Below, piece by piece: positions 1,281-27,910 of a stretch of 36,911 bases of DNA (positions are counted from its first letter, which is position 1; every line of letters begins with the position of its first letter). The DNA is from a virus (Duplodnaviria; Heunggongvirae; Uroviricota; Caudoviricetes). The stretch lies in IMG/VR virus record IMGVR_UViG_2531839667_000007. The stretch is one strand, 5' to 3'. The notes below the pieces were generated by a model. It did no database searches. It was not told the DNA's origin and saw only the letters and a list, made by a program, of their open reading frames with translations. The translations under genes were made by a program, and so were the position numbers.

Positions 1281-1848
1281 TATCGCGTCCTCAACAATGA
1301 ATTTTGTGATGCGGTGCCTGGTGCCTCCAGGTGACGTTAACCAGTTAACAATTAACGCCGGATACAGAGAATCCACCCATAACACTGTTTTTGGTTTTAA
1401 CTGTTCCGCGTGCGCTCAGCCGCATTCACCACATCACAAAATTCACTTTAAAAAGGGCGGCAGAGCAGTCACGGAGTAAAACTGATACCGCCAAACGTCA
1501 CCAGAAAATTGATAACAGAGGGCGTTGCAGCGGGGTTGTCACTTAAGCGTATGGTCAACCTGACAACCCGGTGTCCTCAACGGGGGAAGGAATAACCCCG
1601 CCATACTTACCGCCGCGCCATTTCGCGGATTGCCACAACCGGAAGCGCACGGTCGACGAAAATTTAACGACAGGCTATCTATGAACCAGCTACCTCGCCG
1701 TGCGCTTTCGCGTTATGGTCTGACTTTTCAGGGAAATATCCTTTCAGTAAACTGTCAATGCCGGATGCTCACCCGTGTCCGGCGCACGCACTCCACCTCA
1801 CCCGTGGAGAACTCCTTAATTACTAACCTTAGCTTTGTTGATTAGCTA

Positions 1849-7076: not shown

Positions 7077-7252
7077 TGCTGCGGGTGCTTGAGGCTATCT
7101 GTCTCAGGCATGAACACCAAAAGGCAGATAGAGAAAAGCCCCAGTTAACATTACGCGTCCGGCAAGACGCTTAACATTAATCTGAGGCCATATCTATGCT
7201 CTACACACGTAGGTTAGCCTCTTACGTGCCGAAAGGCAAGGAGAAGCAGGCT

Positions 7253-7408
7253 ATGAAGCAGCAAAAGGCGATGCTTATCGCCCTGATCGTCATCTGTTTA
7301 ACCGTCATTGTGACGGCACTGGTAACGAGGAAAGACCTCTGCGAGGTACGACTCCGAACCGGCCAGACGGAGGTCGCTGTCTTCACAGCTTACGAACCTG
7401 AGGAGTAA
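7253..7408 (+). CDS. hok: Hok/Gef family type I toxin (51 aa)
   Basis: MKQQKAMLIALIVICLTVIVTALVTRKDLCEVRLRTGQTEVAVFTAYEPEE aligns with plasmid R1 Hok along its length; strong SD AAGGCAAGGAGAAG; in-frame upstream ATG at 7196. Confidence 0.8.
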   Translation: MKQQKAMLIALIVICLTVIVTALVTRKDLCEVRLRTGQTEVAVFTAYEPEE

Positions 7409-17031: not shown

Positions 17032-17565
17032 ATGAACGAAAAAATAAAATACGGCCTGTCGGCTGCCGTTCTGGCGCTGATTGGTGCAGGTGCTTCTGCG
17101 CCTGAAATCCTCGACCAGTTTCTGGATGAAAAGGAAGGTAACCACACCATGGCATACCGTGATGGTGCGGGGATCTGGACCATCTGCCGTGGTGCCATTC
17201 TGGTGGATGGTAAGCCTGTTATTCCTGGCATGAAGCTGTCAAAGGAAAAATGCGACCGGGTTAATGCCATCGAACGTGACAAGGCGCTGGCATGGGTGGA
17301 GAAAAACATCAAAGTGCCGCTGACCGAACCCCAGAAAGCGGGGATCGCGTCATTCTGTCCGTACAACATTGGCCCCGGTAAGTGCTTCCCGTCGACGTTT
17401 TATAAACGAATTAATGCAGGCGATCGAAAAGGTGCCTGTGAGGCGATTCGCTGGTGGATTAAGGACGGTGGCAGAGACTGCCGTATTCGTTCAAACAACT
17501 GTTACGGTCAGGTATCCCGTCGTGACCAGGAGAGCGCGCTGGCGTGCTGGGGTATCGACAGATAA
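17032..17565 (+). CDS. R: SAR endolysin (T4-lysozyme-like, phage 21 R-type)
   Basis: 177 aa; Gly/Ala-rich hydrophobic N-terminus GLSAAVLALIGAGASAP; E-x8-D-x5-T catalytic spacing in EGNHTMAYRDGAGIWT. Confidence 0.85.
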   Translation: MNEKIKYGLSAAVLALIGAGASAPEILDQFLDEKEGNHTMAYRDGAGIWTICRGAILVDGKPVIPGMKLSKEKCDRVNAIERDKALAWVEKNIKVPLTEPQKAGIASFCPYNIGPGKCFPSTFYKRINAGDRKGACEAIRWWIKDGGRDCRIRSNNCYGQVSRRDQESALACWGIDR

Positions 17566-17918: not shown

Positions 17919-18050
17919 ATGTCAGACAAACTCATAACGCTGGCGAAGATCCTCTGTGTAATTGTCGGCATTTCATTTTCACTAATGCTGGTTGCTCTTT
18001 TTCTTTCCATGGCCTGGATGATGTTGTCTTCGTCGGGGTTGCTGGGGTGA
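17919..18050 (+). CDS. small hydrophobic peptide (43 aa, [43 protein letters not shown])
   Basis: Internal ATG of track ORF 17829..18050, GAAGGGAGG SD at 7 nt; single predicted TM helix. Confidence 0.35.
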
Positions 18051-18061
18051 ACATAAACCGA

Positions 18062-18520
18062 ATGCTTTCCGCGTTTATCGTTATTCTGCTGGTGGCCTGT
18101 GGTGCGCTGTGGATGGCAACAGACCATTACCGTGATAACGCGATTACCTACAAAGCGCAGCGCGATAACAAAGCCAGTGAACTGAAGCTGGCGAACGCAA
18201 CCATTACTGATATGCAGGTGCGCCAGCGCGATGTTGCTGCGCTCGATGCAAAATACTCGAGGGAATTAGCCGATGCGAGAGCTGAAAATGAAACTCTTCG
18301 CGCTGACGTTGCCGCTGGTCGTAAGCGCCTGCGGATCAACGCCACCTGTCCAGGCTCCGTGCGTGAAGCCCCCACCACCTCCGGCGTGGATAATGCAACC
18401 GGCCCCCGACTGGCAGACACCGCTGAACGGGATTATTTCATCCTCAGAGAACGGTTGATGACAATGCAGAAGCAGGTGGGAGGGGCGCAGGAATATATCC
18501 GCACTCAGTGTATTAACTAG
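18062..18520 (+). CDS. Rz: Rz i-spanin (alternative GTG start 18047)
   Basis: N-terminal TM then [32 protein letters not shown]... closely matching lambda Rz. Confidence 0.85.
18288..18458 (+). CDS. Rz1: Rz1 o-spanin lipoprotein, embedded in the +1 frame of Rz
   Basis: [17 protein letters not shown] has lipobox LVVSAC; proline-rich PPPPPAW; wholly inside Rz. Confidence 0.75.
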
Positions 18521-18768: not shown

Positions 18769-19124
18769 GCGACCTTATTATCCATGCGCGGTATTGTCGC
18801 CGTATTCCCGCATTAACAGAGACCGCAGCCCGACCGGGAGACTCCTCTGTGCGAGTGTGCGGGGATAATCAAAAACGATACACACCGGGGTTTACCGCGT
18901 TAACGGAGCGCGGCGTTGTCCCCTCATAGTCGCATGTCCGGTGCGATGGTGGAAGAAGCCGGATGTTTATCACTATTAATTGATGACACAGAAATGGATT
19001 CATTGAATTTCAGCACGTTTTTGTATTCGTGTTATTGAACATCTGTTTATTTTACTTTTAACATATTGATAATAAAAAGAGCTGTAAATCTTTAGATGAG
19101 TCGATTTTGTCCGGGGAAGTTCAA

Positions 19125-19265: not shown

Positions 19266-19397
19266 GTTATATTAATTATAACAAATAATTTTCTGTGTTA
19301 TTTTTTCAGGCTATCCCGTCAGAGGGGAAGCCTGTACTGCCGGGGAGCGAATGGAAAACTGATGTGTCCGGTAACTGCGTGTTCTGTGAACACCATG

Positions 19398-19583
19398 TTA
19401 CTTAATTATGTAATTCATACCCGAACTCTCTGTTGACAGCCTTCTTCTGCAGGCTTCAATAACCCACGCTGAAAAGTTTCCTGAACCTTTCAGATCAAGA
19501 GCGATGTTAATTTGTTCAATCATCTGGTTTGGAAATCGGATGTTGCGGGTTGTTGTTCTGCGGGTTCTGTTCTTTGATGACAT
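19398..19583 (-). CDS. Arc/MetJ-type ribbon-helix-helix DNA-binding protein (61 aa)
   Basis: RNIRFPNQMIEQINIALDLKGSGNFSAWVIEACRRRL fits the Arc-like RHH pattern; GGGGA SD; transcribed opposite to late genes. Confidence 0.55.
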   Translation of the reverse strand: MSSKNRTRRTTTRNIRFPNQMIEQINIALDLKGSGNFSAWVIEACRRRLSTESSGMNYIIK

Positions 19584-19789
19584 AATGTTTCCCCATATTC
19601 AGTGTTGCTGATTTGTATTATCTGAAGTTGCTTTTACGTTAATTTGACGCAGATCAATTAATACGATACCTGCGTCATAATTGATTATTTCTCGTGGTTT
19701 GATGGCGTACACACATGTTGTGATAAACCTTATATAGATGATAATCATTATCATTTCGTGGGTCCTTTCCGGCGATCCGACCGGTTACG

Positions 19790-19801
19790 GGGCGGCGACC
19801 T
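19790..19801. other. cosN cohesive-end site (GGGCGGCGACCT)
   Basis: 45 nt from 19790 are identical to the left-end sequence of phage lambda as recalled (GGGCGGCGACCTCGCGGGTTTTCGCTATTTATGAAAATTTTCCGG), about 185 bp before the small terminase gene. Confidence 0.8.
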
Positions 19802-19835
19802 CGCGGGTTTTCGCTATTTATGAAAATTTTCCGGG

Positions 19836-19940
19836 ATCCATGTCCGGTTTCTCTGCAAGTTAACTATATGAAAAATATAAAAACAGGCTGTCCGTGAACC
19901 GGACATGTGCAAAAAACGGACATGTAAACCGGACATGACC
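19836..19940. repeat. cosB-like array of CGGACATG repeats (direct at 19900-19907, 19917-19924, 19930-19937; inverted at 19839-19847)
   Basis: Repeats read from sequence between cosN and the small terminase gene; differ from lambda R sites. Confidence 0.55.
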
Positions 19941-19984
19941 GGTTTTGTGCTGATTGTGAGGTAAGAGTTTTTGCGAGGTGAGGA

Positions 19985-20494
19985 GTGGCTACGCAGACTG
20001 AAGTTGCCAGGCATTTGAGTCTGACCGATCGCCAGCTTCGCAGATTGCAGAAATTACCGGGTGCCCCGGTCTCGAATAAGCGAGGGCAACTGGATCTGGA
20101 TGCCTGGCGCGATTTTTACATATCGTATCTGAGAAGAAGTAAAAACGATGTGCCTGATGGCGATAGCGAAGAAGACTATGAAGAGAAATTGCTTATTGCC
20201 AGATGGGAACTGACAGCAGAACAGGCTGTTACACAGCAGTTAAAAAATGAGGTGTCAAAAGGAAAACTGATTGACACCGGGTTCTGTATTTTTGCCCTCA
20301 GTAAGCTGGCAATGGCGTTATCCAGTACGCTTGATTCCATCCCTTTATCCATGCAGCGACAGTTTCCTGATTTAACACCGCGCCATCTTGACCATCTGAA
20401 AACCCTTATTGCTAAGGGGGCAAATCAGTGTGCGCGGGCAGGGGATAAATTACCGGATTTACTTGATGAATATATCAGAGCAACAACTGAATAA
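19985..20494 (+). CDS. nu1: terminase small subunit (Nu1-like, divergent N-terminal DNA-binding region)
   Basis: C-terminal half matches lambda Nu1 (...SIPLSMQRQFPDLTPRHLDHLKTLIAKG...); GTG start after GAGG; overlaps large terminase start. Confidence 0.85.
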   Translation: MATQTEVARHLSLTDRQLRRLQKLPGAPVSNKRGQLDLDAWRDFYISYLRRSKNDVPDGDSEEDYEEKLLIARWELTAEQAVTQQLKNEVSKGKLIDTGFCIFALSKLAMALSSTLDSIPLSMQRQFPDLTPRHLDHLKTLIAKGANQCARAGDKLPDLLDEYIRATTE

Positions 20495-22394
20495 TATGAT
20501 GAGCGCTGTCACAACTGCATTACAGCCCCTGATAAGGGCATTGCCGGTGACGCCAGTTGAATGGGCTGATCAAAATTATTATCTGCCTAAAGAATCTTCA
20601 TATGGTGAGGGCGAATGGAAAACGCTGCCATTCCAGATCGCCATCATGAACAGCATGGGGAATGATCAGATCCGCACTGTTAATCTGATTAAATCTGCCC
20701 GTGTTGGCTATACAAAGATGTTGCTGGGGGTGGTCGGGTATTTTATTGAGCATAAATCCCGAAACAGTCTGCTTTTTCAGCCCACGGATTCTGCCGCTGA
20801 AGATTTTATGAAGTCTCACGTGGAGGCGACGATTCGGAACGTGCCATGCCTGAAAGACCTTTCCCCATGGCTGGGTCGTAAACATCGTGACAATACTCTC
20901 ACGCTGAAACGCTTTTCATCGGGCGTCGGTTTCTGGTGCCTGGGCGGCGCTGCCGCCAAAAACTACCGTGAAAAATCCGTGGACGTGGTCTGTTATGACG
21001 AGCTTTCCTCGTTCGAACCGGATGTTGAAAAAGAGGGTTCGCCAACCCTGCTGGGGGATAAACGTATTGAGGGCTCTGTATGGCCAAAATCCATTCGCGG
21101 CTCGACGCCTAAAATCAAAGGCTCCTGCCAGATCGAAAAAGCCGCTAACGAGTCGGCACACTTCATGCGTTTTTATGTGCCCTGTCCGCACTGTGGGGAG
21201 GAGCAGTATCTGAAATTTGGCGATGATGCCTCGCCTTTCGGTCTTAAGTGGGAGAAGAATAAGCCAGAAAGTGTTTTCTACCTTTGTGAGCATCATGGCT
21301 GTGTGATCCATCAGTCTGAGCTTGACCAGAGTAACGGGCGGTGGATCTGTGAAAACACGGGCATGTGGACCCGTGACGGCCTGATGTTTTTCAGCGCCCG
21401 GGGTGATGAAATTCCGCCGCCGCGCTCCATCACTTTCCATATCTGGACGGCGTACAGTCCGTTCACCACCTGGGTACAGATTGTCTATGACTGGCTGGAT
21501 GCACTGAAAGATCCCAACGGCCTGAAAACCTTTGTGAACACCACGCTGGGCGAGACCTGGGAAGAGGCCGTGGGCGAAAAACTCGATCACCAGGTGCTGA
21601 TGGATAAGGTTGTGCGTTACACGGCGGCGGTGCCTGCCCGGGTGGTTTATCTGACGGCGGGCATTGACTCGCAGCGAAACCGTTTTGAGATGTATGTCTG
21701 GGGATGGGCTCCGGGAGAGGAAGCCTTTCTGGTGGATAAAATCATCATTATGGGGCGTCCCGATGAGGAAGAGACGCTGTTACGTGTGGATGCGGCGATC
21801 AACAAAAAATACCGCCATGCAGACGGAACCGAAATGACCATTTCCCGTGTCTGCTGGGACATCGGGGGGATCGATGGCGAAATCGTTTATCAGAGGTCAA
21901 AAAAACACGGTGTTTTCCGGGTGCTGCCGGTAAAAGGCGCATCTGTCTATGGCAAGCCGGTGATCACCATGCCAAAAACCCGCAATCAGCGGGGCGTGTA
22001 TCTGTGTGAAGTGGGGACGGACACCGCAAAAGAAATTCTCTATGCCCGTATGAAAGCCGATCCCACGCCTGTGGATGAAGCCACGTCGTATGCCATCCGT
22101 TTTCCTGATGATCCGGAGATTTTTTCGCAGACAGAGGCGCAGCAACTGGTCGCGGAAGAGCTTGTGGAGAAGTGGGAAAAAGGAAAGATGCGTCTGCTGT
22201 GGGATAACAAAAAGCGGCGTAACGAAGCGCTGGACTGCCTGGTGTATGCCTACGCGGCATTACGTGTGTCCGTGCAACGCTGGCAGCTTGATCTGGCTGT
22301 ACTGGCAAAATCCCGGGAAGAAGAGACGACCCGGCCAACCCTGAAAGAACTGGCAGCGAAGCTGTCCGGAGGAGTGAATGGTTACAGTCGCTGA
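20466..22394 (+). CDS. A: terminase large subunit (lambda gpA-like)
   Basis: 642 aa from MNISEQQ; long colinear similarity to lambda gpA including WADQNYYLPKES and KNYREKSVDV. Confidence 0.95.
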   Translation: MNISEQQLNNMMSAVTTALQPLIRALPVTPVEWADQNYYLPKESSYGEGEWKTLPFQIAIMNSMGNDQIRTVNLIKSARVGYTKMLLGVVGYFIEHKSRNSLLFQPTDSAAEDFMKSHVEATIRNVPCLKDLSPWLGRKHRDNTLTLKRFSSGVGFWCLGGAAAKNYREKSVDVVCYDELSSFEPDVEKEGSPTLLGDKRIEGSVWPKSIRGSTPKIKGSCQIEKAANESAHFMRFYVPCPHCGEEQYLKFGDDASPFGLKWEKNKPESVFYLCEHHGCVIHQSELDQSNGRWICENTGMWTRDGLMFFSARGDEIPPPRSITFHIWTAYSPFTTWVQIVYDWLDALKDPNGLKTFVNTTLGETWEEAVGEKLDHQVLMDKVVRYTAAVPARVVYLTAGIDSQRNRFEMYVWGWAPGEEAFLVDKIIIMGRPDEEETLLRVDAAINKKYRHADGTEMTISRVCWDIGGIDGEIVYQRSKKHGVFRVLPVKGASVYGKPVITMPKTRNQRGVYLCEVGTDTAKEILYARMKADPTPVDEATSYAIRFPDDPEIFSQTEAQQLVAEELVEKWEKGKMRLLWDNKKRRNEALDCLVYAYAALRVSVQRWQLDLAVLAKSREEETTRPTLKELAAKLSGGVNGYSR

Positions 22395-22584
22395 ACTGCA
22401 GGCGCTGCGTCAGGCGCGCCTTGATTTATTAACCGGTAAACGGGTGGTGTCTGTCCAGAAAGATGGTCGCAGAATTGAATATACGGCGGCTTCTCTGGAT
22501 GAGCTTAACCGGGCGATCAATGATGCGGAGTCGGTACTGGGGACAACCCGGTGTCGCCGTCGTCCGCTGGGAGTGAGATTATGA
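22378..22584 (+). CDS. W: head-tail joining protein (lambda gpW-like)
   Basis: 68 aa; TGKRVVSVQKDGRRIEYTAASL matches lambda gpW. Confidence 0.9.
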   Translation: MVTVAELQALRQARLDLLTGKRVVSVQKDGRRIEYTAASLDELNRAINDAESVLGTTRCRRRPLGVRL

Positions 22585-24173
22585 AACGAACGCCTGTCCT
22601 GATTGATGTGAACGGCGTTCCGCTTCGTGAGAGTCTCAGCTACAACGGGGGCGGTGCAGGATTTGGCGGGCAAATGGCTGAGTGGTTGCCACCGGCGCAG
22701 AGTGCCGATGCGGCCCTGCTGCCCGCGTTGCGTCTGGGGAATGCCCGGGCAGATGATCTGGTGCGCAATAACGGGATAGCGGCCAATGCGGTGGCTCTGC
22801 ATAAGGATCACATTGTCGGGCATATGTTTCTGATCAGCTACCGTCCGAACTGGCGCTGGCTGGGGATGCGGGAGACCGCAGCAAAAAGCTTTGTCGATGA
22901 GGTGGAGGCGGCCTGGTCGGAATACGCCGAAGGGATGTCTGGCGAGATCGACGTGGAAGGAAAACGCACGTTCACGGAATTTATCCGTGAAGGTGTGGGC
23001 GTTCATGCGTTTAACGGCGAAATCTTTGTGCAGCCGGTCTGGGATACGGAAACCACGCAGTTATTCCGTACGCGTTTTAAAGCCGTGAGTCCGAAACGGG
23101 TGGACACGCCTGGACACGGTATGGGGAACCGTTTTCTGCGGGCCGGTGTGGAGGTCGATCGATATGGCCGTGCCGTCGCGTACCATATCTGTGAGGATGA
23201 TTTTCCGTTCTCTGGTAGTGGACGATGGGAACGGATCCCGCGTGAACTTCCCACCGGGCGTCCGGCCATGCTGCATATTTTCGAGCCGGTGGAGGACGGG
23301 CAGACCCGTGGGGCTAATCAGTTTTACAGCGTCATGGAACGGCTGAAGATGCTCGATTCCCTGCAGGCAACACAGCTTCAGTCGGCCATAGTGAAGGCGA
23401 TGTATGCAGCGACGATTGAAAGTGAACTTGATACCGAAAAGGCCTTTGAATATATCGCCGGCGCGCCACAGGAGCAGAAGGATAATCCGCTTATTAATAT
23501 TCTGGAGAAGTTTTCCAGCTGGTATGACACGAATAACGTGACACTGGGCGGTGTCAAAATTCCGCACCTTTTCCCTGGTGATGATCTGAAACTACAGACT
23601 GCGCAGGATTCAGACAATGGATTTTCTGCGCTTGAACAGGCGCTGCTGCGGTATATCGCCGCCGGTCTTGGCGTTTCCTACGAACAGTTGTCCCGTGATT
23701 ACTCGAAGGTCAGTTACTCAAGTGCCCGCGCCTCCGCCAATGAGTCGTGGCGCTATTTTATGGGGCGGCGAAAATTTATTGCGGCCCGGCTGGCCACGCA
23801 GATGTTTTCCTGCTGGCTGGAAGAGGCACTTCTTCGGGGGATTATTCGTCCGCCACGGGCACGTTTTGATTTTTATCAGGCGCGATCAGCCTGGTCACGG
23901 GCAGAGTGGATTGGTGCCGGAAGAATGGCCATTGACGGGCTCAAGGAAGTCCAGGAATCAGTGATGCGCATTGAGGCCGGACTGAGCACGTATGAGAAAG
24001 AGCTGGCGCTGATGGGCGAGGATTATCAGGACATTTTCCGCCAGCAGGTCAGGGAATCTGCTGAGCGGCAAAAAGCCGGACTCTCACGTCCGGTGTGGAT
24101 AGCGCAGGCGTATCAGCAGCAGATAGCGGAGAGTCGTAGGCCGGAAGAGGAGACAACACCACGTGAGACGTAA
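22581..24173 (+). CDS. B: portal protein (lambda gpB-like)
   Basis: 530 aa from MKRTPVLID; extensive similarity to lambda gpB; ATGA overlap with W. Confidence 0.95.
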   Translation: MKRTPVLIDVNGVPLRESLSYNGGGAGFGGQMAEWLPPAQSADAALLPALRLGNARADDLVRNNGIAANAVALHKDHIVGHMFLISYRPNWRWLGMRETAAKSFVDEVEAAWSEYAEGMSGEIDVEGKRTFTEFIREGVGVHAFNGEIFVQPVWDTETTQLFRTRFKAVSPKRVDTPGHGMGNRFLRAGVEVDRYGRAVAYHICEDDFPFSGSGRWERIPRELPTGRPAMLHIFEPVEDGQTRGANQFYSVMERLKMLDSLQATQLQSAIVKAMYAATIESELDTEKAFEYIAGAPQEQKDNPLINILEKFSSWYDTNNVTLGGVKIPHLFPGDDLKLQTAQDSDNGFSALEQALLRYIAAGLGVSYEQLSRDYSKVSYSSARASANESWRYFMGRRKFIAARLATQMFSCWLEEALLRGIIRPPRARFDFYQARSAWSRAEWIGAGRMAIDGLKEVQESVMRIEAGLSTYEKELALMGEDYQDIFRQQVRESAERQKAGLSRPVWIAQAYQQQIAESRRPEEETTPRET

Positions 24174-25668
24174 TCTTTCACACATTATTGCCGCAGCATT
24201 CAATGAACCGCTGCTTCTGGAGCCCGCCTATGCGCGGGTTTTCTTTTGCGCGCTCGGGCGCGAGATGGGGGCAGCAAGTCTTTCGGTACCACAACAGCAG
24301 GTACAGTTTGATGCTCCCGGAATGCTGGCTGAAACGGACGAGTACATGGCCGGAGGTAAACGACCGGCCCGTGTTTACAGGGTGGTGAACGGTATTGCTG
24401 TACTGCCGGTGACCGGCACGCTGGTGCACCGGCTGGGTGGTATGCGGCCATTTTCCGGAATGACAGGCTATGACGGTATTGTCGCCTGTCTTCAGCAGGC
24501 AATGGCGGATAGCCAGGTGCGGGGCGTACTGCTGGACATTGACAGTCCGGGCGGGCAGGTCGCCGGCGCGTTTGACTGCGCTGACATGATTTACCGCCTC
24601 CGTCAGCAGAAGCCGGTCTGGGCACTGTGCAATGACACGGCCTGCTCTGCAGCCATGCTGCTGGCGTCGGCCTGCTCCCGACGGCTGGTTACCCAGACAT
24701 CCCGTATCGGCTCTATTGGCGTGATGATGAGCCATGTCAGCTATGCCGGTCATCTGGCGCAGGCCGGTGTTGATATCACGCTGATTTACTCAGGGGCGCA
24801 CAAGGTGGATGGCAATCAGTTTGAAGCGTTGCCGGCAGAGGTTCGCCAGGACATGCAACAGCGCATTGATGCGGCGCGCCGGATGTTTGCTGAAAAAGTG
24901 GCGATGTATACCGGTCTGTCTGTTGATGCCGTCACGGGAACAGAGGCCGCCGTTTTTGAAGGTCAGTCCGGCATTGATGCCGGGCTGGCGGATGAATTAA
25001 TCAATGCGTCGGATGCCATCAGTGTGATGGCCACGGCGCTGAACAGTAATGTCAGAGGAGGCACTATGCCGCAATTAACTGCAACGGAAGCCGCCGCGCA
25101 GGAGAACCAGCGAGTGATGGGGATCCTGACATGCCAGGAAGCGAAAGGACGTGAACAGCTTGCCACGATGCTGGCAGGACAACAGGGCATGAGCGTTGAA
25201 CAGGCCCGGGCGATTCTGGCCGCGGCGGCACCACAGCAGCCGGTGGCATCCGCGCAGAGTGAAGCCGATCGCATTATGGCGTGTGAAGAAGCGAAAGGTC
25301 GTGAACAACTGGCGGCAACGCTGGCGGCGATGCCGGAGATGACGGTGGAAAAAGCCCGCCCGATCCTGGCTGCTTCACCGCAGGCGGATGCCGGACCCTC
25401 ACTCCGTGATCAGATCATGGCACTGGATGAGGCAAAAGGGGCTGAGGCTCAGGCTGAACAGCTGGCTGCCTGCCCGGGAATGACTGTGGAGAGCGCCCGG
25501 GCTGTGCTGGCTGCGGGATCAGGTAAGGCAGAACCGGTCTCTGCATCCACAACCGCCATGTTTGAACGTTTCATGGCGAATCATTCACCGGCAGCGGTAC
25601 AGGGTGGCGTGCCACAGACGTCAGCAGACGGTGATGCGGACGTGAAAATGCTCATGGCCATGCCATGA
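24163..25668 (+). CDS. C: head maturation protease / minor capsid protein C with in-frame Nu3-like scaffold region
   Basis: 501 aa, GTG start; N-terminal two thirds match lambda gpC (S49/ClpP-like); C-terminal part has three tandem copies of a scaffold-like motif. Confidence 0.9.
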   Translation: MRRNLSHIIAAAFNEPLLLEPAYARVFFCALGREMGAASLSVPQQQVQFDAPGMLAETDEYMAGGKRPARVYRVVNGIAVLPVTGTLVHRLGGMRPFSGMTGYDGIVACLQQAMADSQVRGVLLDIDSPGGQVAGAFDCADMIYRLRQQKPVWALCNDTACSAAMLLASACSRRLVTQTSRIGSIGVMMSHVSYAGHLAQAGVDITLIYSGAHKVDGNQFEALPAEVRQDMQQRIDAARRMFAEKVAMYTGLSVDAVTGTEAAVFEGQSGIDAGLADELINASDAISVMATALNSNVRGGTMPQLTATEAAAQENQRVMGILTCQEAKGREQLATMLAGQQGMSVEQARAILAAAAPQQPVASAQSEADRIMACEEAKGREQLAATLAAMPEMTVEKARPILAASPQADAGPSLRDQIMALDEAKGAEAQAEQLAACPGMTVESARAVLAAGSGKAEPVSASTTAMFERFMANHSPAAVQGGVPQTSADGDADVKMLMAMP

Positions 25669-25704
25669 AGCCAGTGCTGACCATCAACAGGAGGTTTTTA
25701 CAAT

Positions 25705-26052
25705 ATGGTGACGAAAACTATCACTGAACAGCGTGCGGAAGTACGTATTTTTGCCGGTAATGATCCGGCTCATACCGCCACAGGCAGCAGCGGGATTTCC
25801 TCGGCAACACCGGCACTGACGCCCCTGATGCTGGATGAGGCCACCGGGAAACTGGTGGTCTGGGACGGACAAAAAGCCGGTAGTGCGGTTGGCATACTGG
25901 TACTGCCGCTTGAAGGCACAGAGACGGTGCTGACCTATTACAAGTCGGGGACCTTTGCGACGGAGGCAATCCGCTGGCCTGAAAGTGTGGATGAACACAA
26001 AAAGGCCAACGCCTTTGCCGGCAGTGCCCTGAGTCACGCGGCGCTGCCGTAA
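25705..26052 (+). CDS. D: head decoration protein (lambda gpD-like)
   Basis: 115 aa; DPAHTATG...TPLMLD...YYKSGTF matches lambda gpD. Confidence 0.9.
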   Translation: MVTKTITEQRAEVRIFAGNDPAHTATGSSGISSATPALTPLMLDEATGKLVVWDGQKAGSAVGILVLPLEGTETVLTYYKSGTFATEAIRWPESVDEHKKANAFAGSALSHAALP

Positions 26053-26109
26053 CACGTTATCAGGCCACCGCGGTGGCCTGACTGATTTCTGAATGAAAGG
26101 AACTGATTT

Positions 26110-27138
26110 ATGGGATTGTTTACGACCCGCCAGTTACTCGGTTATACCGAACAAAAAGTGAAATTTCGTGCGCTGTTTCTGGAGCTGTTTTTCCGCCGTA
26201 CGGTGAATTTCCATACCGAAGAGGTGATGCTGGACAAAATTACCGGAAAAACGCCGGTGGCGGCCTATGTTTCCCCGGTTGTTGAAGGAAAAGTGCTGCG
26301 TCATCGTGGTGGTGAAACCCGCGTGTTACGTCCGGGCTACGTCAAGCCGAAACACGAATTTAATTACCAGCAGGCGGTTGAGCGTCTTCCCGGTGAAGAT
26401 CCGGCTCAGCTGAACGACCCGGCCTACCGTCGTCTGCGTATCATCACTGATAACCTCAAACAGGAAGAGCACGCCATTGTCCAGGTGGAAGAAATGCAGG
26501 CGGTGAATGCCGTGCTGTATGGCAAATACACGATGGAAGGAGACCAGTTCGAGAAAATTGAGGTCGATTTTGGCAGGTCGACGAAGAATAACATCACTCA
26601 GGGTAGTGGTAAGGAGTGGTCAAAACAGGATCGTGACACGTTCGATCCTACACATGATCTTGACCTCTACTGCGACCAGGCCAGCGGTCTTGTGAATATT
26701 GCCATTATGGACGGTACCGTCTGGCGTCTGCTGAATGGCTTTAAATTGTTCCGCGAAAAACTGGATACCCGTCGCGGCTCTAATTCGCAACTCGAAACAG
26801 CGGTGAAAGACCTGGGCGCGGTGGTGTCCTTCAAAGGGTATTACGGCGATCTGGCCATTGTGGTGGCAAAAACGTCTTATGTGGCAGAGGACGGTACCGA
26901 AAAACGTTATCTGCCTGAGGGCTCGCTGGTCCTGGGGAATACGGCAGCAGAGGGCATTCGTTGCTATGGTGCCATTCAGGATGCGCAGGCGTTGTCCGAA
27001 GGTGTGGTGGCCTCTTCCCGTTATCCGAAACACTGGCTGACGGTAGGGGATCCCGCCCGTGAATTTACCATGACGCAGTCCGCGCCGCTGATGGTGTTGC
27101 CGGACCCGGATGAGTTTGTGGTGGTACAGGTGAAATAA
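26110..27138 (+). CDS. E: major capsid protein (lambda gpE-like)
   Basis: 342 aa; colinear similarity to lambda gpE. Confidence 0.95.
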   Translation: MGLFTTRQLLGYTEQKVKFRALFLELFFRRTVNFHTEEVMLDKITGKTPVAAYVSPVVEGKVLRHRGGETRVLRPGYVKPKHEFNYQQAVERLPGEDPAQLNDPAYRRLRIITDNLKQEEHAIVQVEEMQAVNAVLYGKYTMEGDQFEKIEVDFGRSTKNNITQGSGKEWSKQDRDTFDPTHDLDLYCDQASGLVNIAIMDGTVWRLLNGFKLFREKLDTRRGSNSQLETAVKDLGAVVSFKGYYGDLAIVVAKTSYVAEDGTEKRYLPEGSLVLGNTAAEGIRCYGAIQDAQALSEGVVASSRYPKHWLTVGDPAREFTMTQSAPLMVLPDPDEFVVVQVK

Positions 27139-27189
27139 TCCGTGAGCGGGGGCGAAATGCCCCCGTGTCTTTTTTCACAGGGGGATGAT

Positions 27190-27564
27190 ATGGCAACGAA
27201 AGAGCAAAATCTGAAACGGCTTGATGAACTGGCCCTGATTCTGGGGCGTGAGCCGGATATATCCGGGAGTGCCGCAGAGATAGCGCAGCGGGTGGCAGAA
27301 TGGGAAGAGGAAATGCAGTCATCCGGCGATGATGTACAGGTTATGAATATGGATATCCGGGAGAGGGAAAACGCGGCTCATGATGTTCGTGAGGAAACAT
27401 CCGGCGCGTTAACGCGCATCAGAGTTCTGACCTGCCTCCATCTCTGTGGCGTTGATGGTGAAACGGGGGAATCCGTTGAGCTTGCGGATGTTGGTCGGGT
27501 GATTCTGATTATGTCCTCAGATGCAAAAACACACGTTGATGGTGGAATGGCTGTTTATGCGTGA
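27190..27564 (+). CDS. FI: DNA packaging protein FI-like
   Basis: 124 aa from MATKEQ; position and partial similarity to lambda FI. Confidence 0.75.
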   Translation: MATKEQNLKRLDELALILGREPDISGSAAEIAQRVAEWEEEMQSSGDDVQVMNMDIRERENAAHDVREETSGALTRIRVLTCLHLCGVDGETGESVELADVGRVILIMSSDAKTHVDGGMAVYA

Positions 27565-27910
27565 TTTTCAGAATGCCTTTGATGCCGCCCTTGCCGGGGT
27601 GGACAGTACGATTGTTGAAGTGATGGGCATCAGTGCGCAGTTCACCTCCGGTGCACAGCGTGGCGGCGAAGTTCAGGGGGTTTTTGACGATCCGGAGTCG
27701 CTGGGTTTTGCCAGTAGTGGGATCCGTATTGAAGGAAGCAGTCCGTCATTATTTGTGCGGACGGATACGGTTCGTGCCGTGCGGCGTGGTGACACGTTGA
27801 CCATTAATGGTGAGACGTTCTGGGTGGATCGTGTTTCTCCGGATGACGGGGGCAGTTGTTATCTCTGGCTGAACCGTGGGCAACCACCCGCAGTTAACCG
27901 GCGACGATAA
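27557..27910 (+). CDS. FII: head-tail connector FII-like
   Basis: 117 aa from MRDFQNAF; C-terminus FWVDRVSPDDGGSCYLWL...PPAVNRRR matches lambda FII. Confidence 0.85.
   Translation: MRDFQNAFDAALAGVDSTIVEVMGISAQFTSGAQRGGEVQGVFDDPESLGFASSGIRIEGSSPSLFVRTDTVRAVRRGDTLTINGETFWVDRVSPDDGGSCYLWLNRGQPPAVNRRR

What the first reader, a model, noticed from the sequence alone, without database searches (positions are those of the whole stretch)
19790..19984. Hybrid cos site: lambda-identical cosN joined to a different cosB repeat set
The first 45 nt from 19790 match the lambda left end, then the sequence diverges into a set of CGGACATG repeats (three direct, one inverted) where lambda has its R sites. The small terminase keeps a lambda-like C-terminus but has a different N-terminal DNA-binding region. 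This is a recombinant packaging-specificity module.
Basis: partly seen in the sequence, partly recalled or inferred. Interest (0 to 1): 0.45.

Follow-up and report, generated by a model that had tools for sequence, protein, structure and literature searches.

The report
Prophage cos site, alternative recognition repeats
This is the DNA-packaging start site (cos) of a lambda-like E. coli prophage: its cutting site is the same as phage lambda's, but the adjacent docking repeats and the matching DNA-binding domain of the small terminase belong to a different recognition type that is very common yet, in the literature I could search, undescribed.

Summary
Window 19790-19834 is identical to lambda bases 1-45, and lambda's right end aligns up to 19789, so this is an annealed cos. 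Similarity to lambda stops at 19835. Four copies of CGGACATG follow, one inverted and three direct; no shuffle reached four copies in 100 nt (0 of 200).

The repeats sit where lambda and phage 21 have their R boxes. The layout is R3 (bp 50-60), an IHF-like site, an inverted R2 (bp 108-118) and a distal copy. The 59-bp R3-to-R2 spacing holds in all relatives that keep both boxes. The box sequence changes in step between R3 and R2, and with residue 20 of the small terminase recognition helix.

This is an ordinary lambda-type packaging mechanism in a probably fourth, uncharacterised specificity class. It occurs in at least 1139 of 5426 complete E. coli genomes. Binding and cleavage are inferred, not shown.

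The parts
19760..19766 (+). cosQ (GGGTCCT), the packaging-termination subsite, 30 nt upstream of the first base of the cohesive end.
   Evidence: It is identical to lambda's at the same distance from the end. GGGTCC is conserved in almost all relatives examined. Its role is taken from PMC4669245.
19790..19801 (+). cosN core, the predicted 12-nt cohesive-end sequence GGGCGGCGACCT. Nicks are predicted before 19790 on the top strand and after 19801 on the bottom strand.
   Evidence: It is identical to lambda bases 1-12, and lambda's right end aligns up to 19789. The nick positions are inferred by homology and have not been mapped.
19802..19834 (+). Conserved spacer between cosN and cosB. It is identical to lambda bases 13-45 and contains the I2-type sequence TATGAAAATTTTC.
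   Evidence: Searches show the lambda identity. The ...TATGAAAATTTTC motif is kept in relatives whose cosB differs. Phage 21's record annotates I2 at the equivalent place.
19839..19849 (+). R3-type box CATGTCCGGTT (bp 50-60 from the cohesive end). It is the inverted copy and the predicted critical small terminase site that positions the large terminase on cosN.
   Evidence: locate it. It sits at bp 48-51 in every relative with this small terminase type. Its sequence covaries with R2 and with small terminase residue 20. Lambda's R3 lies at bp 50-65 (PMC9026076).
19861..19873 (-). I1-type candidate IHF site TTTCATATAGTTA (bp 72-84), inside an A+T-rich stretch between R3 and R2.
   Evidence: It matches WATCAANNNNTTR with 2 mismatches. 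That is not significant on its own: 272 matches in the window against 290 expected. Support is positional. Phage 21's I1 is annotated at bp 72-86, and the relatives L019 and L021 carry a perfect AATCAATTGGTTA at the same place.
19897..19907 (+). R2-type box AACCGGACATG (bp 108-118), in the opposite orientation to R3.
   Evidence: locate it. The R3-to-R2 start-to-start spacing is 59 bp in all relatives that keep both boxes, although the sequence between them diverges. Its variable bases track those of R3 within each locus.
19914..19924 (+). Middle direct copy AAACGGACATG (10 of 11). It is probably a decaying or accessory copy.
   Evidence: In close E. coli relatives the CGGACATG core reads CAGACATG, TAGACATG, TAGATATG, TAGACACT or TGGGCATG. 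It is absent from Salmonella, Citrobacter and Klebsiella relatives.
19927..19944 (.). Distal R1-type site. It is the direct copy AACCGGACATG (19927-19937, bp 138-148) overlapped by an inverted 10-of-11 copy CATGACCGGTT (19934-19944), giving the near-palindrome AAACCGGACATGACCGGTTT.
   Evidence: locate both copies. The copy in the R2 orientation, 30 bp after R2, is kept in the E. coli and Enterobacter lineages even where the inverted half is lost.
19985..20494 (+). Small terminase gene (169 aa, GTG start, preceded by GAGGTGAGGA at 19975-19984). Residues 1-55 form a winged helix-turn-helix DNA-binding domain with its recognition helix at residues 15-22. Residues about 61-169 form the Nu1-type core and the large-terminase-binding end.
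   Evidence: RefSeq annotates the same ORF as 'terminase small subunit' in a related prophage of strain 2013C-4465 that is about 97% identical over this region.
20466..22394 (+). Large terminase gene (642 aa), with gpA ATPase and nuclease domains. The first 27 or so codons have no detectable similarity to phage 21's. The rest is 95% identical to phage 21 gp2.
   Evidence: Pfam gives GpA_ATPase 3.9e-55 and GpA_nuclease 6.4e-71.

Best explanation
The region 19760-19984 is the cos site of a lambda-like (phage 21-type head) prophage and works as lambda's does.

Proposed mechanism. Dimers of the small terminase's N-terminal winged-helix domain bind the R boxes: R3 at bp 50-60 and the oppositely oriented R2 at bp 108-118. 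These two boxes are brought face to face by an IHF-type bend in the A+T-rich stretch between them. The copy at bp 138-148 acts as an accessory site. This anchors the large terminase, which is bound through the small terminase's C-terminal end, on cosN. There it makes staggered nicks that give the 12-nt 5' cohesive end GGGCGGCGACCT starting at 19790. cosQ at 19760 serves termination of packaging.

What differs from lambda, 21 and N15 is the recognition pair: the box CATGTCCGGTT and a diverged DNA-binding domain. The element is therefore most likely a separate packaging specificity.

Shown here: the sequence anatomy, the homology, the fold, and the conservation and covariation patterns. Inferred: binding, bending, nick positions and the separateness of the specificity.
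For: - Cos identity. Bases 1-45 are identical to lambda, and lambda's right end with cosQ aligns up to 19789.
- Repeat cluster. It exceeds chance, with 0 of 200 shuffles reaching four copies.
- Genes downstream. A Nu1-family small terminase and a gpA-family large terminase follow directly. The head genes are 97.3% identical in DNA to phage 21's.
- Positions. R3 is at bp 50-60, against lambda's R3 at bp 50-65. R2 is inverted. The centre-to-centre R3-R2 spacing is 59 bp, against 58 bp in lambda and 21 (PMC9026076).
- Conservation. In Klebsiella, Salmonella, Citrobacter, Enterobacter and other E. coli relatives the flanking and intervening DNA diverges. R3, R2 and their spacing stay.
- DNA-DNA covariation. 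The boxes change together within a locus. ATGTCC pairs with ATGTCC, ATTTCC with ATTTCC, and ACTTCC with ACTTCC.
- Protein-DNA covariation. All 9 domain variants with Arg20 have a TGTC box. All 23 variants with Asp, Asn, Ser, Thr, Lys or Gln at residue 20 and a recognisable box have TTCC. Parsimony gives at least 3 independent switches. In the MAFFT alignment A3 the same column is Arg in phage 21 (box CATGTCGG) and Asn in lambda and phi80 (box CGTTTCC). The varying base is the box position that is bp 56 in lambda and 21, a known specificity determinant (PMC4669245).
- Evidence that phages with this module are viable. The GenBank phage collection holds five records named Escherichia phage PhiR12_x, with laboratory E. 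coli strains in the host field. They carry the same cosB and small terminase: 95.7% DNA identity, 98.2% protein identity.
Against: - No experiment bears on this class. I found no paper on small terminase binding, IHF dependence or end mapping for it.
- The IHF-like site in this window has 2 mismatches, which is not significant on its own.
- Aligned by box sequence, the R3/R2 pair lies about 3 bp nearer to cosN than in lambda and 21. In lambda, shifts of more than 1-2 bp are harmful (PMC4669245), so the geometry cannot be exactly lambda's.
- The conserved distal copy has R2's orientation, not R3's as in lambda and 21.
- Published genetics for lambda and 21 assign discrimination at bp 56 to residue 24 (and residue 20), not to residue 21. 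My residue-20 pairing is a correlation only.
- This particular prophage carries an IS3-family insertion upstream of its lysis genes, so this copy may not be inducible.
Confidence: 0.85

Rival explanations
1. The cos is as described, but the specificity is not separate. The box is close enough to phage 21's (CATGTCCGG against CATGTCGG) that phage 21 terminase and this terminase cross-package each other's DNA. The class would then be a diverged allele of the phage 21 specificity.
For: The boxes share CATGTC and GG. Both recognition helices have Arg in the covarying column and share the R-x-[IL]-x-R-[WL]-Q pattern. The large terminase body and the head genes are of phage 21 type. There is a precedent for unexpected cross-recognition: N15 terminase packages lambda DNA (PMC4669245).
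Against: The DNA-binding domains are only 18% identical and BLAST cannot align them. The box carries an extra C and a conserved GGTT tail that phage 21 lacks. The box lies 3 bp nearer to cosN. The small terminase C-terminal end and the large terminase N-terminus were exchanged together with cosB, as expected for a self-contained specificity cassette.
Confidence: 0.15
2. Only the R3 box matters, giving a simple cosB like N15's. The three downstream copies are duplication remnants that contribute nothing to packaging.
For: Distant members of the same small terminase family have only a box, often the tandem TTCCGGTTCCGG, right after the spacer, with the gene start within a few tens of nt. The middle copy is visibly decaying among E. 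coli relatives. Salmonella and Citrobacter relatives lack the third copy. In lambda, R3 is the critical site (PMC9026076).
Against: R2 is kept at a fixed 59-bp distance from R3 in all enterobacterial lineages that keep both boxes, despite divergence of the DNA between them, and R2 tracks R3's sequence changes. That is hard to explain without selection on R2. The third copy is kept at a fixed 30 bp from R2 in several lineages.
Confidence: 0.1
3. The repeats are not terminase sites. They are binding sites for another regulator, or hairpin or terminator elements that control read-through into the late operon.
For: The consensus scan reports two weak terminator-like hairpins that overlap the R3 and R2 boxes. 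Four were found in 19300-20200 against 1.0 expected. The distal site is a near-palindrome.
Against: The stems are only 5-6 bp, and they are not kept in relatives such as L023, which lacks the first CCGG. What is conserved is the box sequence, its orientation and its spacing, not the pairing. The box covaries with a residue of the small terminase recognition helix. The position matches the R sites of lambda and 21. No Rfam family matches the region.
Confidence: 0.03
4. The element is a relic. The cos sequence is intact, but this prophage is defective and the site is never used.
For: An IS3-family ISEc48-like element is inserted at about 14451-15797, upstream of the holin and lysis genes. It is absent from the otherwise 99.85% identical left part of the prophage of strain 2013C-4465. 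That related prophage carries several pseudogenes.
Against: The small terminase, the large terminase and all large head and tail ORFs from 19985 to the window end are open. Sequences 98-100% identical to this cos segment, over 99-100% of it, head the list of complete E. coli genomes that carry it. A defective prophage's cos can still be cut in trans by a co-resident prophage of the same specificity, and genomes hold up to 8 matching places. This rival concerns the activity of this copy, not what the element is.
Confidence: 0.1

Closest known systems
Phage lambda cos (cosQ-cosN-cosB with R3-I1-R2-R1) and gpNu1/gpA terminase
   Same: cosQ, the 12-nt cohesive-end sequence and the next 33 bp are identical. 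R3 starts at bp 50. R2 is inverted relative to R3, about 58-59 bp away, with an A+T-rich IHF-type stretch between them. The small terminase has the same domain order and the same winged-helix fold. The large terminase is of the gpA family.
   Different: The box is CATGTCCGGTT rather than CGTTTCC(G/T)TTCT. The DNA-binding domain is 20% identical in MAFFT and not alignable by BLAST. The small terminase core is 46% identical and the large terminase 66%. The boxes lie about 3 bp nearer to cosN. The conserved distal copy is oriented like R2, not like R3. There is one extra, degenerate copy.
Phage 21 cos and gp1/gp2 terminase (the second documented lambda-like specificity)
   Same: The large terminase is 95% identical, and the head operon from window 20548 is 97.3% identical in DNA. 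cosQ and cosN are the same. The boxes are related (CATGTCGG against CATGTCCGG), with G at the specificity position and Arg in the same helix column. I1 sits at the same coordinates, bp 72-86.
   Different: cosB, the whole small terminase gene and the first 27 or so codons of the large terminase gene are replaced. DNA identity there is about 50%, and 57-93% up to about 20970. Small terminase identity is 40% over residues 64-166 only, and 18% in the DNA-binding domain.
N15 / Monarch group (third documented specificity; simple versus complex cosB with the same recognition helix)
   Same: The same contrast exists inside this family. Enterobacterial members have a complex cosB (R3-I1-R2, with or without R1). 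Distant members have only a proximal box close to the gene start. One Citrobacter relative even carries N15's cohesive-end variant GGGCGGCGTCCG.
   Different: The box and the recognition helix are unrelated to N15's. The N15 small terminase aligns only over residues 64-164, at 44%.
PICI cos sites and Rpp proteins (E. coli chromosomal islands that redirect lambda-type terminase)
   Different: Here the winged-helix domain is part of a full-length small terminase that carries its own Nu1 core and C-terminal end. The locus is a complete phage head-tail operon, not an island. R2 and an IHF-type site are present, whereas PICI cosB has none.

Membership tests
Lambda-like cos phages (12-nt 5' cohesive ends related to lambda's) | A cohesive-end sequence with strong identity to GGGCGGCGACCT, flanked as in lambda. 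| tested here: met
   It matches 12 of 12 bases, plus 33 further identical bases. Lambda's right end aligns up to the junction.
Lambda-like cos phages (12-nt 5' cohesive ends related to lambda's) | A conserved 7-bp cosQ upstream of cosN. | tested here: met
   GGGTCCT lies at 19760-19766, at the same distance as in lambda.
Lambda-like cos phages (12-nt 5' cohesive ends related to lambda's) | A gpA-family large terminase and a Nu1-family small terminase encoded directly downstream. | tested here: met
   Pfam gives GpA_ATPase 3.9e-55 and GpA_nuclease 6.4e-71. Phage_Nu1 scores 1.5e-18 but covers residues 61-150 only.
Lambda-like cos phages (12-nt 5' cohesive ends related to lambda's) | Virion DNA actually ends at cosN with 12-nt 5' overhangs. 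| not testable with these tools
   This needs end mapping of packaged DNA. The PhiR12 records are not deposited starting at cos.
Complex cosB (R3-I1-R2-R1) as in lambda, 21, phi80, Gifsy-1, Monarch | A proximal R3 box at about bp 48-65. | tested here: met
   The box is at bp 50-60 here and starts at bp 48-51 in relatives.
Complex cosB (R3-I1-R2-R1) as in lambda, 21, phi80, Gifsy-1, Monarch | An R2 box in the opposite orientation to R3. | tested here: met
   The inverted copy is at bp 108-118. The spacing is a fixed 59 bp across relatives, against 58 bp in lambda and 21.
Complex cosB (R3-I1-R2-R1) as in lambda, 21, phi80, Gifsy-1, Monarch | An IHF site (I1) between R3 and R2. | tested here: inconclusive
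   The window has a 2-mismatch match at bp 72-84, which is not significant alone. Some relatives have a perfect consensus at the same place. Phage 21's I1 is annotated at bp 72-86.
Complex cosB (R3-I1-R2-R1) as in lambda, 21, phi80, Gifsy-1, Monarch | An R1 box oriented like R3. | tested here: inconclusive
   The conserved distal copy (bp 138-148) is oriented like R2. A 10-of-11 copy in R3's orientation overlaps it (bp 145-155) but is lost in several relatives. One relative, L196, has a perfect R3-oriented distal copy.
Complex cosB (R3-I1-R2-R1) as in lambda, 21, phi80, Gifsy-1, Monarch | The small terminase N-terminal winged helix-turn-helix domain binds the R boxes. | not testable with these tools
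Lambda packaging specificity | R boxes CGTTTCC(G/T)TTCT and the gpNu1 recognition helix. | tested here: not met
   No such box lies in 19835-19984. The DNA-binding domain is 20% identical.
Phage 21 packaging specificity | R boxes C(A/G)TGTCGG and the gp1 recognition helix. | tested here: not met
   The box has an extra C and a different tail, and lies 3 bp nearer to cosN. The DNA-binding domain is 18% identical. Functional cross-recognition has not been tested.

The most novel reading that the evidence does not exclude
This cosB and small terminase pair defines a fourth lambda-like packaging specificity, after lambda, 21 and N15, and is one of the commonest among E. coli prophages. Within the family, specificity is set largely by a one-residue, one-base-pair code. 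Arg at residue 20 of the recognition helix goes with G at box position 4. Asp, Asn, Ser or Thr at that residue goes with T. The same code separates phage 21 from lambda. Under this reading, prophages that share a head-gene backbone are partitioned into groups that do not package each other's DNA. The several same-type prophages in one pathogenic E. coli genome can package and mobilise one another.
Probability: 0.5. Interest if true: 0.45.

Novelty: new member of a known kind. Interest (0 to 1): 0.3.

Why it matters
Packaging specificity decides which co-resident prophages, defective prophages and satellites can be packaged by which terminase. It therefore affects how virulence-gene-carrying lambdoid prophages are mobilised and how they recombine.

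The searchable literature documents only three lambda-like specificities: lambda, 21 and N15 (PMC4669245). The class found here is in at least 21% of complete E. coli genomes, with up to 8 matching places in one genome, and in 475 IMG/VR contigs. It appears to have no experimental description.

The natural covariation table gives ready-made predictions for how a winged-helix small terminase reads its site. The table links box variants ATGTCC, ATTTCC and ACTTCC to residue 20 as Arg, Asp or Asn.

The mechanism itself is not new.

Tried and rejected
- The IHF consensus scan is uninformative at 2 mismatches: 272 found against 290 expected.
- The extra box-like 11-mer at 18933-18943 (1 mismatch) could have been a remote R site. 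I rejected this because relatives read CTCGTCCGGTG or CCAGTCCGGTG there and it does not follow their own box type.
- The minus-strand ORF 19814-20014 (66 aa; a 'hypothetical protein' is annotated under cosB in the PhiR12 records) is rejected as a gene. The region carries insertions, deletions and non-coding-type divergence among relatives.
- Terminator-like hairpins are weak and not conserved.
- The first scans of genome contigs and viral contigs returned mainly near-identical E. coli copies or very distant members. The informative intermediate relatives came from the look-up of encoding contigs and from re-querying with divergent homologues.
- Three Feiss-laboratory papers could not be read: Sippy 2015 (PMC5006951), Feiss 2015 Virology (PMC4461450) and Vahanian 2017. 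Prior mention of this class in them cannot be excluded.
- No paper describing the PhiR12 phages was found.

Full report
**What is there**

Window 19790-19834 is base-for-base identical to the first 45 bases of phage lambda, and the first mismatch is at base 46. Lambda's last 190 or so bases align to window 19590-19789 and end exactly at 19789, with the 7-bp cosQ GGGTCCT at 19760-19766. The window therefore holds a joined cos site in prophage order: lysis genes upstream (lysozyme 17032-17565, Rz 18047-18520) and terminase genes downstream.

The search against the phage collection shows that lambda-type similarity (89%) covers 19600-19834 and then stops. From 19835 the sequence carries CGGACATG once inverted (19839-19846) and three times direct (19900-19907, 19917-19924, 19930-19937). 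The unit is really 11 nt, CATGTCCGGTT / AACCGGACATG. Three copies are perfect and the middle one matches 10 of 11. An overlapping inverted 10-of-11 copy at 19934-19944 makes the last site a near-palindrome. Four copies of one 8-mer within 100 nt never occurred in 200 dinucleotide-preserving shuffles of the window; the maximum was three.

**The genes next to it**

The ORF at 19985-20494 has a GTG start preceded by GAGGTGAGGA and encodes 169 aa. It matches Pfam Phage_Nu1 only over residues 61-150. Small terminases of lambda, phi80, 21 and N15 align only from residue 64-73 onward, at 40-47% identity.

The large terminase (20466-22394, 642 aa) has the gpA ATPase and nuclease domains. It is 95% identical to phage 21 gp2 but 66% identical to lambda gpA. 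Window 20548-27725 is 97.3% identical in DNA to the phage 21 head operon.

A sliding comparison with phage 21 gives three zones:
- about 50% identity from 19842 to 20552;
- 57-93% from 20553 to about 20970;
- 97-100% in the 30-nt windows from 20970 to 21299, where the comparison ends.

Relative to phage 21, the exchanged block is therefore cosB, the entire small terminase gene and the 5' part of the large terminase gene. These are the parts known to carry DNA recognition and the contact between the two terminase subunits. The small terminase's C-terminal 40 residues bind the large terminase (PMC9026076). That the large terminase N-terminus is the partner is established knowledge from the lambda/21 hybrid work, which I did not re-read here.

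**The N-terminal domain**

It is therefore the same winged helix-turn-helix fold as gpNu1's DNA-binding domain, at 16-20% sequence identity.

**Comparative anatomy**

I collected loci that encode this 'MATQ-type' small terminase from Klebsiella, Salmonella, Citrobacter, Enterobacter, other E. coli and distant proteobacterial contigs.

The enterobacterial loci share one layout:
- cosQ;
- cosN, with variation in bp 7-12 as the literature describes;
- the spacer ...TATGAAAATTTTC;
- a box ending in TCCGGTT at bp 48-51;
- an A+T-rich stretch that in some loci holds a perfect IHF consensus (AATCAATTGGTTA);
- the same box inverted.

The R3-to-R2 distance is 59 bp in every locus that keeps both boxes, although the DNA between them is not conserved. 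In lambda and 21 the equivalent centre-to-centre distance is 58 bp.

A third copy 30 bp beyond R2, in R2's orientation, is kept in the E. coli and Enterobacter lineages. It is missing in the Salmonella and Citrobacter relatives. The middle copy of the window is degenerate in most E. coli relatives, including the PhiR12 phages. Distant members have only a proximal box, often the tandem TTCCGGTTCCGG, close to the gene start. This parallels the published contrast between Monarch (complex cosB) and N15 (simple cosB) (PMC4669245).

**Covariation**

Within each locus, R3 and R2 carry the same variable bases: ATGTCC, ATTTCC or ACTTCC. Across loci, the base at box position 4 follows residue 20 of the recognition helix.
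- All 9 distinct domain variants with Arg20 have TGTC.
- All 23 variants with Asp, Asn, Ser, Thr, Lys or Gln and a recognisable box have TTCC.
- Two variants have no recognisable box.
- Parsimony on a domain tree gives at least 3 independent switches.

Some 'both' calls arise because the regular expression also hit the TTTTCCGG of the spacer.

In the MAFFT alignment A3 the same column is Arg in phage 21, whose boxes are CGTGTCGG and CATGTCGG. It is Asn in lambda and phi80, whose boxes are CGTTTCC.... Box position 4 corresponds to bp 56 of lambda and 21, a documented specificity base pair (T:A in lambda, G:C in 21; PMC4669245).

This is the strongest non-experimental evidence that the repeats are small terminase sites. 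It is a correlation among related sequences. The published genetics assign discrimination at bp 56 to residue 24 (and residue 20), not residue 21.

**Mechanism**

The best explanation is the lambda mechanism with a different recognition pair.
1. Dimeric winged-helix domains dock on R3 and the inverted R2 across an IHF-type bend. The distal copy is accessory.
2. The large terminase, held by the small terminase's C-terminal end, nicks cosN to give the 12-nt cohesive end starting at 19790.
3. cosQ serves termination of packaging (framework from PMC9026076 and PMC4669245).

Three differences from lambda and 21 need noting:
- By box alignment the R3/R2 pair lies about 3 bp nearer to cosN.
- The conserved distal copy is oriented like R2.
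- There is an extra, decaying copy.

**Is it 'hybrid'?**

It is, in the sense of a cassette exchange on a phage 21-type backbone. However, identical cosQ and cosN with a different cosB is the ordinary condition of lambda-like phages; lambda and 21 themselves share them (PMC4669245). Relatives of the same class carry spacer variants like those of lambda or of phage 21. The 45 identical bases therefore reflect constraint by the large terminase rather than a recent cross with lambda.

**Prevalence and novelty**

The cos segment 19780-20000 is found at 80% coverage or more in 1139 of 5426 complete E. coli genomes, with up to 8 matching places per genome. Relatives of the small terminase occur in 475 IMG/VR contigs. 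Five GenBank phage records, PhiR12_1, _2, _2_star, _4 and _5, carry the module at 95.7% DNA identity.

The literature I could search lists only the lambda, 21 and N15 specificities (PMC4669245, 2015; PMC9026076, 2022). I found no description of this class. Three relevant Feiss-laboratory papers are not in the library.

I rate it a new member of a known kind. The mechanism is ordinary. The specificity class is very common but uncharacterised, and it comes with a useful natural covariation series.

Noticed in passing
window 14451-15797 (ORFs 14494-15375 and 15333-15761, minus strand): An IS3-family element is inserted here (orfA HTH_Tnp_1, orfB rve; 99.3% identical to elements annotated as ISEc48-family). 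It is absent from the otherwise 99.85% identical left part of the prophage of strain 2013C-4465. It lies upstream of the holin and lysis genes, so it may interrupt late transcription and make this prophage copy defective.
   Followed up: partly
window 1455-1506 (-), 7083-7258 (+), 11829-12018 (+): Three known small RNAs of cryptic lambdoid prophages pass Rfam gathering scores: DicF, sok (the antitoxin of a hok-type toxin) and STnc100. The related annotated locus has dicB, ydfC and hokD at the matching places.
   Followed up: no
window 11503-11752: A three-tRNA cluster lies downstream of a DNA methyltransferase gene (10404-11453). ARAGORN calls the first tRNA Met (CAT), whereas RefSeq annotates the equivalent gene in the related prophage as tRNA-Ile. 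The others are Arg-TCG and Arg-TCT.
   Followed up: no
loci L033, L200, L204, L242, L245, L248, L011 (upstream of the small terminase start): Distant members of the same small terminase family, from non-enteric contigs, keep cosQ and a cosN-like segment. They have only a proximal, often tandem box (TTCCGGTTCCGG), and the gene starts a few tens of nt later. This is a 'simple' cosB, analogous to N15 against Monarch.
   Followed up: partly
loci L019-L032, cosN region: The cohesive-end sequence varies among relatives of this class: GGGCGGCGACCT, GGGCGACGCGCT, GGGCGGCAGCGT, and N15-like GGGCGGCGTCCG in Citrobacter. Most changes fall in bp 7-12, as described for lambda-like phages (PMC4669245).
   Followed up: no
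window 19763-19772: The bases just after cosQ read CCTTTCCGGC. They resemble the T-type box (ATTTCCGGT) used by relatives of this family. Phage 21's record annotates an 'R4' box at the equivalent place. I did not test whether this has any meaning here.
   Followed up: no
window 18933-18943 (-): An isolated 10-of-11 match to the R box (CACCGGACATG) lies about 850 bp upstream of cosN. It is not conserved and does not covary in relatives, so it is probably chance.
   Followed up: yes
window 19398-19583 (-): A small ORF (61 aa, Pfam DUF3950; YlcI/YnfO family in RefSeq) lies immediately upstream of cos on the opposite strand. It sits between the lysis genes and cosQ.
   Followed up: no
window 19739: There is a mosaic joint. 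Similarity to the PhiR12 phages (95.7%) begins at 19739, just upstream of cosQ. The 140 bases before it are lambda-like instead.
   Followed up: partly
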